Shown in pieces: positions 42,001 to 45,000 of a DNA stretch of 64,000 nt. A program made the position numbers. The stretch comes from Callorhinchus milii (Eukaryota), in assembly GCF_018977255.1 (NCBI RefSeq), contig NW_024704745.1:12214001-12278000 (forward strand). Direction: 5' to 3'. How positions within the stretch are numbered: the stretch's first letter is position 1; each line of letters begins with the position of its first letter.

Positions 42001-45000
42001 AACTTGCCCAAGGTTTCGCCCTCTGCCTGGAATTGAACTCGGGTGTCTCACTTGCAAAGCAAGCGCTCTAACCACTGAGCTGCAGGATGCAACGTACCTT
42101 TCCTTTGCTCGATGGCGTGTTTGATCTCCCCCAGCAACAGCACAAGCCACAGAGAAACCACAGCCAGGCAGCGAAGAAGAAAGATTGCAAAGGCATCCGT
42201 TTGCTATTGAGTGAAGGACAACAACAACATGCTCTCATCATACAACGCCCTTTCAACTTCGGGAGGCTGTCTGTCTCCCACAAGCGCTTCACACAACTCA
42301 GGACCACCTTCCTTCCCCCTGTTAGGGCTTTGGCTCTCGAAATTCCACCCACCTATTTATTCTCAGTCTGTTTGTCTTAAAATGTTTAATTGTACAATGG
42401 TGTGTGCTGGGGGTGGGGGTGGTGGTCAGTTATAATTTGGAAGCCATTTGTTTTCAAGTATTGTGGAAAAACAATTTCCAAATAATGACTTAACTGTTTT
42501 TATTTTTCACCATTCTGCCATAGCTTCAATTTGATGGCAGAAAGGTCTGATAGGCTAAGAAAGGGTCATATTTCTATATAACGTTTTATATAAAGTATCT
42601 GCAATATAATATTTCTTGTATTGCCCAAATGTTACAGAGGAGCCTAAACAATAGTCAATACACTTGACAGTATATCCCATAAATATAAAAGAAAATATAT
42701 TTTATGTTTTACAAAATATGAAAGAAAATACATTATTTTATCTGACATAAAAGCAGCTATATAAAATGCAAAGATTATTTATTACTATAGATGCTGAGCG
42801 CGTTTGATGTTATGCTTGGAATCAGAGACTGCATATTTATTATTTTACACGTTTGCTACAATTCGCACCTTTTTCAATCCGAATATCCCACTTTGCATTT
42901 TATAGATCCGTCGATGTACAATTTAGAATGTAAATTGTATTATATTGTTATAGATCCGCTGACCTAGCGCAATTGCCTGCCACCTTTTGCTCACCAAATA
43001 TAGCCAATTCATTTTACAATATATTCTGTGAAGCGCTTTGAGACATCTCAATGACGTGATGAGGCGCTGAATCAAATGCAAGGATTATTATTATTTAACA
43101 CGAATAATTAGTAATACTAATATTGCAGTTATTGTTTAAGAAAAATCTGTTTGATTTGTGTTGGATAATCAGAGGCAACAAGTCGTAGAATTTAGCCGCT
43201 TCTTTATTACAAAATGACTTACTCGGGGTGAAGCTGATCCTCTCTGTACCCGGTGGGATGAGGGTGATGTGCTGAACCTGACAGGTGACAGCAGAGCCCA
43301 GGTGCCAGTCAGGGGTTTGGAGGCTCAGCCGTGAGCTCAGGGTGAAGGTCCCGTCGCTGTTCACTGTGAGAGATGCGGACTCTGTCTCATGCGGTACATC
43401 TCCCGTTACCATCCAGGAAACATTCAGATCTCTTGGGAGAAATCCCGCAGCCACACAGGTCAGAGTCTGAATTCCAGAGGTCCCACTCTCTGGTTCAGCT
43501 GAGAGCTGGACTTGGGGTTTGACTGTAAGATAAATAATTATCTTAAGATACATAATTAACATTGGACGCAAAAAGGACAGTGTTTATAACTACCTGCACT
43601 TATCAAGCAGTGACACTGGCCCATTTCAATCCCTAATTTCCACACACCTACTTGCATCGAAAGCCAGATTGCAAAGGCAGTGAGTGGTTGGTTCCAACAC
43701 TTGTTAAAAAAAAAAATTGCGTTAAAAAAATGGCGCACGAAAGAGACCCCAGAAATCTCAACATCAACCGAACCAACACTCCCGCTCCAGCACATGCAGC
43801 GCCACTTGAGAGGAACGAGTGAACCACAGTAACAGCACTGAATCTGTGACTGATATATGTGTGCCTTTGCCATACCCCACCAGCATCGGTAACTGTTGTT
43901 GGCATTGCCGAGGCAATGTGCCACACGGCTGGACCTGGGCGTAAAGGAGGCTCACATTTGATGCCACTTTGTGTCTTTGAACATGTGCCCCCCCCGCCAC
44001 TCCCTCCCTCCCTGGATAAAGATCCCAGCCCGAGGCTAATTTCCTCCCTCACTAAATAGTAAAATACCCTCTTATTCCTAATGCGGCTCCAGCAAACTCT
44101 GCACAGACCAGGGATCATAGCTGGAAGATATTAGGTTTCATTTAAACAGATAGACAAGATACTGTGCCTCGGAATGTCAAACTGGTTTCATTCCCTGTGA
44201 ATTCTCTTCTGAGCAGAGGGTCCTCCACTACAATCAGTAGTTATTGGCGGTAGTTATAATACTCGCCGATGTCAATCGCAGCAATGACATCGATCACAAG
44301 CAGGCTGAAAGGCAAGTTTAAGCCTTTAGACACGGCTGTACGATGGTTAGACTGAATTGCTTTCATGCCTTGTGTCGGATTGCGGCTTCGGTCTCTTCGA
44401 TACCAGTAATAAATGAAGTATTTGATCTCTCCCCTGGTATGCGCAGAGCAGTTGAACCGAGCTGTGTCTCCAGGTTTCAGTGACAGAGGACGGAGACTGG
44501 TGGACTTGAAGACTGGTAATCACAGCTGTAAATGAGAGACTTGGTGTAGCCGTTACATTTGCGGTTACATACTATATTGCATAGTATTATGGTTAAGCCC
44601 TAAACCTATTCCAGTTATTAAAATTACTGCTATAATCTAATATCTCCATGTGGTGAGAGAGTTGCCATCGCACGATACGTCTTTAAACGAGCATTGAAGG
44701 ATTCTCAAAGAAATCAGCAATTGATGATTTTTACTTTGCAAACTTATATAAAATTAGCTATTGCATTTGTGTCTGTTATGCATCGATTGGTCGAAGTGTG
44801 TTACAGTAAGTTGAATTTTCATTTCATGCTCGATAAAAGTTCTTAGCGCAACCTTCCAAAAATGTCCAAAACAACAATCCATAAATGCTCATAACATCAC
44901 AGACGTTAGTCAAAATGAATTGATCCATAAAGGGCTGAAATACTCTAGATTGTGGAACCATGTTTAACAGCAAAAAAAGCTGATTTATTGGATCGAATGT

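What the first reader, a model, noticed from the sequence alone, without database searches (positions are those of the whole stretch)
43223..43522. Exon-limited gene conversion: three near-identical C1 exons under very different V domains
Seen: the A2 C1 differs from the A1 C1 at 11/278 nt after the first 22 nt (7/22 before), closer than A3 is to A1. Its flanking introns do not align beyond about 10 nt, and its leader and V are highly divergent. Inference: concerted evolution of the constant domain with free V diversification, echoing many-V/one-C logic without rearrangement. An open C1 in a gene with a dead V implies recent conversion or a C1-only product.
Basis: partly seen in the sequence, partly recalled or inferred. 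Interest (0 to 1): 0.65.

Follow-up and report, generated by a model that had tools for sequence, protein, structure and literature searches.

The report
Constant-domain exon copied between receptor paralogues
One decayed member of a small family of antibody-like receptor genes carries a constant-domain exon that is nearly identical to those of its two relatives while everything around it is unrelated, which is the ordinary footprint of gene conversion in immune gene families.

Summary
The window has three leader-V-C1 units: A1 (minus strand, C1 13021-13320), A2 (minus, C1 43223-43522) and A3 (plus, C1 62396-62695). A2 differs from A1 at 7/22 then 11/278 nt, from A3 at 7/22 then 16/278, and A1 from A3 at 0/22 then 19/278. 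A2's introns show no similarity to those of A1 or A3 above shuffled controls. Synonymous divergence between A2 and A1/A3 is 0.03-0.09 in C1 but 1.7-1.8 in V. The near-identical stretch is shorter than the exon, about nt 30-293. The best explanation is interlocus gene conversion into or out of a diverged paralogue.

The wider reading is only partly right. A1 and A3 share about 1.2 kb that includes the intron (96.2%) and the V exon (97.9%, their most similar part). So their similarity is not exon-limited and their V domains are not different. A2's V exon is dead: it has a TAA, has lost the Cys and has a GC donor. The window therefore holds two V lineages, not many.

Exon-focused conversion in immunoglobulin-superfamily families is well known. 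Cross-species orthology and expression could not be tested.

The parts
43223..43522 (-). A2 C1 exon (300 nt, phase 1 to phase 1, open, both splice sites intact): the finding itself
43230..43493 (-). Near-identical patch inside the A2 C1 exon (exon nt 30-293). It differs from A1 at 7/264 and from A3 at 12/264. The exon's first 29 nt differ at 8/29 and its last 7 nt at 3/7. This is the inferred conversion tract.
13021..13320 (-). A1 C1 exon
62396..62695 (+). A3 C1 exon
44168..44512 (-). A2 V exon (345 nt from the AG at 44514-44513). The Ig frame has an in-frame TAA at 44243..44241, Asn in place of the Cys of the YYC motif, and GC instead of GT at the donor (44167-44166). Read from the upstream AG (exon start 44525) the frame is wrong.
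45399..45441 (-). A2 leader exon (43 nt, phase 1)
13790..14122 (-). A1 V exon (333 nt, open, Pfam V-set, with a J-like G-x-G-T-x-L motif in the same exon)
14300..14348 (-). A1 leader exon (phase 1)
61416..61748 (+). A3 V exon (326/333 nt identical to A1's)
61271..61301 (+). A3 leader exon (phase 1; only 63% identical to A1's over the aligned leader)
12981..14149 (-). A1 side of the A1/A3 shared block. It runs from 27 nt before V to 40 nt after C1. Its partner is 61389-62739 on the plus strand, in inverted orientation.
61389..62739 (+). A3 side of the A1/A3 shared block. It carries a SINE-fragment insertion of about 140-150 nt just after the V donor (about 61755-61900) that A1 lacks.
12311..12399 (-). 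Candidate transmembrane exon of A1 (ag|...|gtaagt, enters in phase 1, a 29-codon hydrophobic run with one Lys and one Arg). No counterpart was found after A2 or A3.

Best explanation
A1, A2 and A3 are paralogues of a small family of non-rearranging antigen-receptor-like genes. Each unit has a split leader, one exon that encodes V together with a J-like strand, and one C1-set exon. A1 probably also has a transmembrane exon.

A2 is an old, diverged and now decayed member. A stretch of about 265 nt inside its C1 exon was recently made the same as the A1/A3 type, or served as their template. The mechanism I favour is interlocus (ectopic) gene conversion: a break in one copy is repaired from the paralogous exon 30 kb (A1) or 19 kb (A3) away. 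I infer that a heteroduplex can form only where the copies are still alike, which is the exon. That is why the tract stops within about 30 nt of the exon's 5' end and about 7 nt of its 3' end. It also makes each conversion ease the next one.

Shown: the two-sided patch, the 20- to 50-fold gap in synonymous divergence between neighbouring exons, and the lack of any intron similarity. Inferred: the mechanism, its direction, and that it has recurred.

A1 and A3 share a longer homogenised block that includes the V exon and the intron. Exchange in this family is therefore patchy and not specific to C1. The intact C1 in a gene with a dead V is most simply a by-product of recent overwriting from an intact copy.
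For: - Patch: A2 vs A1 differs at 8/29 (exon nt 1-29), 7/264 (nt 30-293) and 3/7 (nt 294-300). Fisher p = 1.4e-5 and 0.0012. A2 vs A3 differs at 8/29, 12/264 and 3/7, with p = 1.9e-4 and 0.0042. The boundaries were chosen after seeing the data.
- The diverged first 29 nt still encode a similar peptide in frame. So an older homologous exon lies under the patch.
- Nei-Gojobori dS in C1 is 0.03 (A1-A2), 0.09 (A2-A3) and 0.12 (A1-A3), with dN/dS about 1.8 (A1-A2; 1.2 over codons 10-99), 0.7 (A2-A3; 0.45) and 0.45 (A1-A3). Protein-level constraint therefore does not explain the identity.
- V dS for A2 vs A1/A3 is 1.68-1.85 with dN 0.54-0.55.
- Introns: A2 vs A1/A3 scores z = -0.3 to 0.1 against 200 shuffles, while A1 vs A3 scores z = 219.
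- The A2 locus 42800-45800 matches the rest of the window only at a SINE fragment (42967-43095), a 65-nt repeat (45282-45346) and the C1 patch. Its introns are not made of repeats seen elsewhere in the window.
- Incongruence: in the flanks A1 pairs with A3 and A2 with neither. In C1, A2 lies between them with only 2 private changes in nt 30-299, against 7 for A1 and 12 for A3.
- Precedent: conversion of C-domain exons in shark UrIg2 (PMC12227049, section 7 read). Exon-focused conversion among CEACAM1 paralogues (PMC7042247, passages read).
Against: - No outgroup species could be examined, so the classical sign of concerted evolution (paralogues grouping by species) is untested.
- There are only three sequences. 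The tree has no root, and neither the direction nor the number of events can be told.
- The hint that A2 is A1-like in its 5' half and A3-like in its 3' half is not significant (max chi-square, permutation p = 0.052).
- 8 of the 21 variable sites in exon nt 30-299, including 6 of the 12 A3-private ones, involve CpG. Parallel CpG decay could distort the distances.
- Donors outside the 64-kb window may exist.
- The A1/A3 block ends only 40 nt after C1 as well. A shared structural breakpoint next to this exon, rather than heteroduplex limits alone, could contribute to the 3' boundary.
Confidence: 0.75

Rival explanations
1. There was no exchange. The C1 exon is simply under extreme constraint, including at silent sites (for example an overlapping splicing or RNA element), while the V exons and introns drifted apart since an old duplication.
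For: All three C1 exons are open with intact splice sites and keep the two Cys and the Trp. C1 is G+C-richer (55-58%) than its flanks (29-46%).
Against: dS is 0.03-0.09 in C1 against 1.7-1.8 in V of the same genes. Replacement changes are as frequent as silent ones in C1 (dN/dS about 0.45 to 1.8), which is not what strong constraint gives. The first 29 nt and last 7 nt of the same exon are diverged. The gene that carries it has a dead V.
Confidence: 0.05
2. A non-homologous event produced the patch: a fragment holding little more than the C1 exon was inserted or captured at the A2 locus by template switching or patch repair at microhomology, or A2 is a young copy whose flanks were replaced by insertions and deletions.
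For: The homology is almost exactly exon-sized. The A1/A3 block also ends 40 nt after C1, which hints at a fragile or recurrent breakpoint. A SINE fragment lies 128 nt downstream of the A2 exon.
Against: The first 29 nt of the A2 exon are homologous but diverged (21/29 identical, same frame, similar peptide). This shows a pre-existing old C1 exon at the site rather than a naked insertion. A2 has its own leader and a V of the same family in the expected order and phases. The 647-nt intron and the 128 nt between the exon and the SINE match no repeat in the window.
Confidence: 0.1
3. The patch is kept by selection because A2 makes a product without V (leader spliced to C1). C1 is then a functional exon maintained by conversion and selection, and the dead V is irrelevant.
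For: Leader (43 nt) and C1 (300 nt) are both phase 1, so skipping V stays in frame. The V donor position reads GC rather than GT, which would favour skipping. C1 has no lesion while V has three.
Against: There are no expression data. No transmembrane or further exon was found downstream of A2. Both private A2 changes inside the patch (nt 30-293) are replacements (F to L and A to T), as is D to E at nt 29 just outside it. A signal peptide joined to a lone C1 domain has no known role that I can name.
Confidence: 0.06
4. Assembly artefact: reads from A1/A3-type C1 exons were mis-placed into the A2 locus.
For: The region is repeat-rich, with an N run at 18456-18625 and a single N at 52331.
Against: A2's C1 is not a copy of either neighbour. 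It has private differences, including 8 in its first 29 nt, and it reads through clean splice sites into unique flanks. Identity of 94-96% is far below what a collapse would give.
Confidence: 0.03

Closest known systems
Gene conversion among C-domain exons of shark UrIg2 (Flajnik et al., Sci Adv 2025, PMC12227049; abstract and section 7 read, plus passages)
   Same: It is a non-rearranging Ig-like gene with V and J in one exon, a split leader and C1-type exons. Its C exons are reported as near-identical and 'homogenized by gene conversion'. UrIg2 (PDB 9dmx) is the best solved-structure match of the C1 exon here (101.7 bits over three domains).
   Different: There the homogenised exons are tandem repeats within one gene. 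Here they are single C1 exons of three separate units tens of kb apart, two of them in inverted orientation. Each unit here shows one C1 exon, not three (UrIg) or nine and more (UrIg2). Per-domain scores (29-39 bits) are no better than to an IgG CH3 (37 bits), so this is not an orthologue.
Concerted evolution of CEACAM1 paralogues (Sci Rep 2020, PMC7042247; passages read)
   Same: [quoted passage not shown]
   Different: In CEACAMs the homogenised exon is the ligand-binding V-like N domain. Here the exon shared by all three is the constant domain, and V is shared only by A1 and A3.
Siglec-11/Siglec-16 conversion involving a non-functional copy (BMC Evol Biol 2017, PMC5701461; search listing and start of abstract only)
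   Same: Exchange of extracellular-domain sequence between paralogous Ig-like receptors, one of them a pseudogene.
   Different: The tracts there cover several exons of a paired activating/inhibitory couple. No such pairing is shown here.
Exon-limited homogenisation of the two T-cell receptor beta constant genes and of IgG constant genes in mammals (recalled from general knowledge; no call)
   Same: Constant-domain coding sequence is kept alike between duplicates while the flanking non-coding sequence diverges.
   Different: Those are rearranging loci with many functional V segments upstream. Here each C1 has its own fused V exon.

Membership tests
Interlocus gene conversion tract (concerted evolution) | A stretch of high identity between paralogues, bounded on both sides by much lower identity | tested here: met
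   A2 vs A1: 8/29, 7/264 and 3/7 differences along the exon. Introns score no better than shuffles.
Interlocus gene conversion tract (concerted evolution) | Silent-site divergence in the tract far below that of neighbouring coding sequence of the same gene pair | tested here: met
   C1 dS 0.03-0.09 against V dS 1.68-1.85
Interlocus gene conversion tract (concerted evolution) | Relationships in the tract disagree with relationships in the flanks | tested here: inconclusive
   Flanks pair A1 with A3 only. In C1, A2 is nearer to A1 (11/278) than A3 is (19/278). Three sequences give no rooted topology, and the mosaic test gives p = 0.052.
Interlocus gene conversion tract (concerted evolution) | Paralogues group by species rather than by orthology | not testable with these tools
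UrIg / UrIg2 (non-rearranging elasmobranch Ig genes) | V and J encoded in one exon behind a split leader | tested here: met
   A1 and A3 have a leader exon ending in phase 1 and a 333-nt V-set exon ending ...F-T-G-N-G-T-x-L-R-I-Q-G.
UrIg / UrIg2 (non-rearranging elasmobranch Ig genes) | Three (UrIg) or nine and more (UrIg2) C1-type domains in a row (PMC12227049, passages) | tested here: not met
   tblastn with C1 finds only the three single exons in 64 kb. No shared exon lies downstream. Very diverged C exons could be missed.
UrIg / UrIg2 (non-rearranging elasmobranch Ig genes) | Location in the MHC class III region (UrIg) or beside IgH/TCR alpha-delta (UrIg2) | tested here: inconclusive
   Neighbours in the window are a TRIM gene and B7-family exons. 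No Ig, TCR or class III gene was seen, but 64 kb is a small view.
Germline-joined Ig light-chain cluster (cartilaginous fish) | The C exon ends the protein (stop codon at the exon end) | tested here: not met
   All three C1 frames run open into a GT donor in phase 1.
Rearranging antigen receptor (Ig/TCR) | Separate V and J segments | tested here: not met
   V and the J-like strand are contiguous in one open exon in A1 and A3. Recombination signal sequences were not searched for.

The most novel reading that the evidence does not exclude
A1-A3 may belong to an undescribed lineage of non-rearranging VJ-C1 receptor genes with a charged transmembrane segment. They lie beside a TRIM3/TRIM45-like gene and B7-H3/B7-H4-like genes, not in the MHC or the antigen-receptor complex where UrIg and UrIg2 lie. 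In this reading, repeated conversion keeps one common constant domain, for instance to fit a shared partner or signalling chain, across members whose V domains are free to differ. That would be a germline counterpart of 'many V, one C' that needs no rearrangement.
Probability: 0.1. Interest if true: 0.7.

Novelty: new member of a known kind. Interest (0 to 1): 0.3.

Why it matters
As a process it adds one more clean case of exon-sized conversion in an immune multigene family. The practical lesson is that trees built from the C1 exon of these genes will mislead about their history, and that an open exon does not show a live gene.

The gene family may matter more than the conversion. Fused V-J plus C1 genes that never rearrange are discussed as relics of the ancestor of antibodies and T-cell receptors (PMC12227049, PMC10751288). 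A further cluster in a different neighbourhood would bear on that debate, if it proves to be new and expressed.

Tried and rejected
- A megablast of the exon against the phage collection found nothing and was beside the point.
I did not resend it. I looked for downstream exons with tblastx between the three downstream regions, which found only repeats. A hydropathy scan gave one credible candidate after A1. It also gave one after A2 (42203..42098) whose hydrophobic frame does not fit the phase of C1, so I do not count it. tblastn and blastn with the A1 candidate found no counterpart (the first try used a wrong frame).
- Single-sequence AlphaFold2 models of the A2 C1 and the A1 V were poor (mean pLDDT 59.4 and 50.4). 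I ran no fold search on them.
- The ESM Atlas gave only generic V-set and C1-set clusters of chordates.
- The UrIg paper of 2023 (PMC10530332) is not held. One literature search failed on a too-short term. A search for 'PRARP' brought no paper on that gene family beyond a mention in PMC10751288.
- Mosaic origin of the A2 patch (5' half like A1, 3' half like A3): suggestive only (p = 0.052).
- Idea rejected: that A1-A3 C1 divergence needs extra exchange. C1 (19/300) is more diverged than V (7/333, p = 0.009) but not than the intron (18/469, p = 0.12). It fits a smooth gradient along the block.
The V comparison was then done by window coordinates in a script.

Full report
**What is there.** The window is repeat-rich vertebrate-type DNA. 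A tRNA-derived SINE of about 325 nt is present in some twenty copies. There are LINE reverse-transcriptase frames and long microsatellites. I did not take it for human. The N runs (18456-18625 and 52331) were left as they are.

- A1, minus strand: leader 14348..14300, V exon 14122..13790, C1 exon 13320..13021.
- A2, minus strand: leader 45441..45399, V exon 44512..44168, C1 exon 43522..43223.
- A3, plus strand: leader 61271..61301, V exon 61416..61748, C1 exon 62396..62695.

All leaders end in phase 1, and all V and C1 exons are multiples of three. The C1 translations are Pfam C1-set (E = 7e-18 to 6e-17). The A1 and A3 V translations are V-set (E = 2e-9 and 2e-8). V and a J-like strand (G-x-G-T-x-L) lie in one exon, so these genes do not rearrange. 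tblastn finds no fourth C1 and no fourth V of the family in the window. All searches and folds were done exon by exon. The step of joining the exons into a spliced model and searching with it was left out.

**The observation.** A2 vs A1 is 7/22 then 11/278. A2 vs A3 is 7/22 then 16/278. A1 vs A3 is 0/22 then 19/278. Outside the exon the A2 match ends within 8-16 nt. A local alignment of A2's 647-nt V-C1 intron, and of 400 nt downstream, against the same parts of A1 and A3 scores 12-13. The mean of 200 shuffles is 12.2-12.8, so z is -0.3 to 0.1. The A2 locus (42800-45800) matches the rest of the window only at a SINE fragment (42967-43095), a 65-nt repeat in the leader intron, and the C1 exon. 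The lack of intron similarity is therefore not explained by repeats seen elsewhere in the window.

**Why this is transfer and not conservation.** Three points bear on it.
- Silent sites. Nei-Gojobori estimates for C1 give dS = 0.03 (A1-A2), 0.09 (A2-A3) and 0.12 (A1-A3), with dN/dS of about 1.8, 0.7 and 0.45 (1.2, 0.45 and 0.45 over codons 10-99). For the V exon of the same genes, 650 nt away, A2 against A1 or A3 gives dS = 1.68-1.85 and dN = 0.54-0.55. Identity there is 39-41 of 99 aligned residues and 54.5% of nucleotides. Silent sites are thus 20 to 50 times less diverged in C1 than in V. Replacement changes in C1 are not rare. Constraint on the protein cannot be the cause.
- Tract ends. 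The near-identical stretch is shorter than the exon. A2 vs A1 has 8 differences in exon nt 1-29, 7 in nt 30-293 and 3 in nt 294-300 (Fisher p = 1.4e-5 and 0.0012). A2 vs A3 has 8, 12 and 3 (p = 1.9e-4 and 0.0042). I chose the limits after seeing the data, so the p values flatter the result, but the contrast is large.
- An older exon underneath. The diverged first 29 nt are still in frame and encode a similar peptide. An older, diverged C1 exon therefore lay at this site and was overwritten in its middle.

A patch bounded on both sides, within an older homologue, is what interlocus gene conversion leaves. A single crossover would leave one flank homologous, and neither flank is.

A1 and A3 are not alike only in C1. 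They share an inverted block of about 1.2 kb with a smooth gradient of identity:

| Segment (A1 vs A3) | Identity |
|---|---|
| Last 27 nt before V | 27/27 |
| V exon | 326/333 (97.9%) |
| 5' half of V-C1 intron | 224/230 (97.4%) |
| 3' half of V-C1 intron | 227/239 (95.0%) |
| C1 exon | 281/300 (93.7%) |
| Next 40 nt downstream | 33/40 |
| Further downstream | none |

Upstream, the distal leader intron is 73.5% identical and the leader exon 63%. Beyond that nothing aligns. A3 has a SINE fragment in the intron that A1 lacks. So in this pair the V exon is the most homogenised part, and the introns align. 'Free V diversification' and 'three C1 exons under very different V domains' do not describe A1 and A3. 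Residual similarity around the leader suggests that the 95-98% block is itself a later homogenisation laid over an older duplication. This is an inference. C1 is more diverged than V in this pair (p = 0.009) but not more than the intron (p = 0.12), so no extra event in C1 is needed.

**Order and direction.** In exon nt 30-299, A2 has 2 private differences, A1 has 7 and A3 has 12. A2 therefore sits near the node of the three. 'A2 is closer to A1 than A3 is' is true, but three sequences have no root. The A3-private sites lie mostly in the 5' part and the A1-private sites in the 3' part. That would fit a mosaic of two tracts, but the max chi-square permutation test gives p = 0.052. Six of the twelve A3-private differences are CpG in A3 against TpG or CpA in A1 and A2. 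If the CpG state is ancestral, A1 and A2 share derived states. Without an outgroup this stays open. Other family members outside the window may be the real donors.

**Is A2 alive?** Its V exon, read in the Ig frame from the AG at 44514-44513, has three lesions. There is a TAA at 44243..44241. There is Asn where the second canonical Cys should be. There is GC where A1 and A3 have the GT donor. Read from the upstream AG, the frame is wrong and closes after 58 codons.

C1 has no lesion. By my own estimate, three lesions in 345 nt predict about 2.6 in 300 nt at equal rates, so the chance of none is about 0.07. That is mild support on its own, but it fits the independent evidence that C1 was recently overwritten.

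No transmembrane or other exon could be found after A2 or A3. After A1 there is one credible candidate at 12399..12311. It has an AG and a GTAAGT, the right phase, and a hydrophobic run with a Lys and an Arg. A1 may thus be the only complete gene of the three.

**What the family is.**
- The best solved relative of C1 is shark UrIg2 (9dmx). It scores 101.7 bits summed over three C domains, at 28.6, 38.8 and 33.9 bits each. An IgG CH3 scores 36.8.
- The best match for the A1 V is a shark VNAR (27 bits), followed by lambda light chains, SIRP-alpha and a TCR alpha chain.
- The Atlas gave only generic V-set and C1-set clusters.
- UrIg has three C domains and UrIg2 has nine or more, and they lie in the MHC class III region and beside IgH/TCR alpha-delta respectively (PMC12227049, passages and section 7; PMC10751288, passages). 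Each unit here shows one C1.
- The neighbours here are a TRIM gene (RING 19216-19725, B-box and coiled coil 21686-22474; best matches TRIM3 and TRIM45) and B7-family exons (best matches CD276 and VTCN1).

I therefore do not file the genes under UrIg or UrIg2. They are antigen-receptor-like VJ-C1 genes of unassigned family. That TRIM45 and VTCN1 are neighbours in human is my recollection, not a result.

**How known is this?** Conversion of C-domain exons is reported in UrIg2 itself (PMC12227049, section 7). [quoted passage not shown] Siglec-11/16 exchange involves a pseudogene (PMC5701461, listing and start of abstract only). The finding is a clean new instance of a known process.

**What stayed unchecked.**
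- Orthology across species, and whether the family is already named.
- Expression.
- Supplementary files of the papers, which may list such genes.

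Noticed in passing
window 12981-14149 (-) and 61389-62739 (+): A1 and A3 share an inverted block of about 1.2 kb. Identity falls steadily from 100% just before V to 82.5% just after C1, and the block ends abruptly 40 nt after C1. Around the leader only 63-80% remains. It looks like a second, longer homogenised tract laid over an older duplication.
   Followed up: yes
window 12311-12399 (-): Candidate transmembrane exon 620 nt downstream of the A1 C1 exon. It has AG and GTAAGT, the right phase, and a 29-codon hydrophobic run holding a Lys and an Arg, as in receptor chains that pair with signalling adaptors. 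No counterpart was found after A2 or A3.
   Followed up: partly
window 19216-19725 and 21686-22474 (+): Two large exons of a TRIM gene: a RING finger, then a B-box plus coiled coil. The best solved matches are TRIM3 (67 bits) and the TRIM45 coiled coil (62 bits over 81 residues). An N run (18456-18625) lies just upstream.
   Followed up: partly
window 53203-53589 and 55125-55535 (+); 39781-40212 and 39142-39381 (-): B7/butyrophilin-type exons. A V and a C exon lie on the plus strand (best solved matches CD276 and VTCN1). A second V exon lies on the minus strand, 3 kb downstream of A2, with what looks like a truncated C exon after it.
   Followed up: partly
window, e.g. 17236-17561, 17729-18052, 23340-23660, 28393-28711, 30339-30663, 49126-49456, 56863-57197: A tRNA-derived SINE of about 325 nt in some twenty copies, 90-96% alike among the best. 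Rfam reports 10 tRNA matches, and ARAGORN of the heads tRNA genes (3 Ala, 1 Thr, 1 undetermined). These are repeat heads, not tRNA genes.
   Followed up: partly
window 47002-48471 (-), also 2808-3822 (-), 59893-60394 (-): LINE fragments with reverse-transcriptase-like open frames. The longest is 489 codons.
   Followed up: no
window 62760-63650 (+): Directly after the A3 C1 exon the sequence turns into long microsatellites (AAAATC-type, poly-purine/pyrimidine, GA/CT runs). No further exon of A3 is seen before the window ends.
   Followed up: partly
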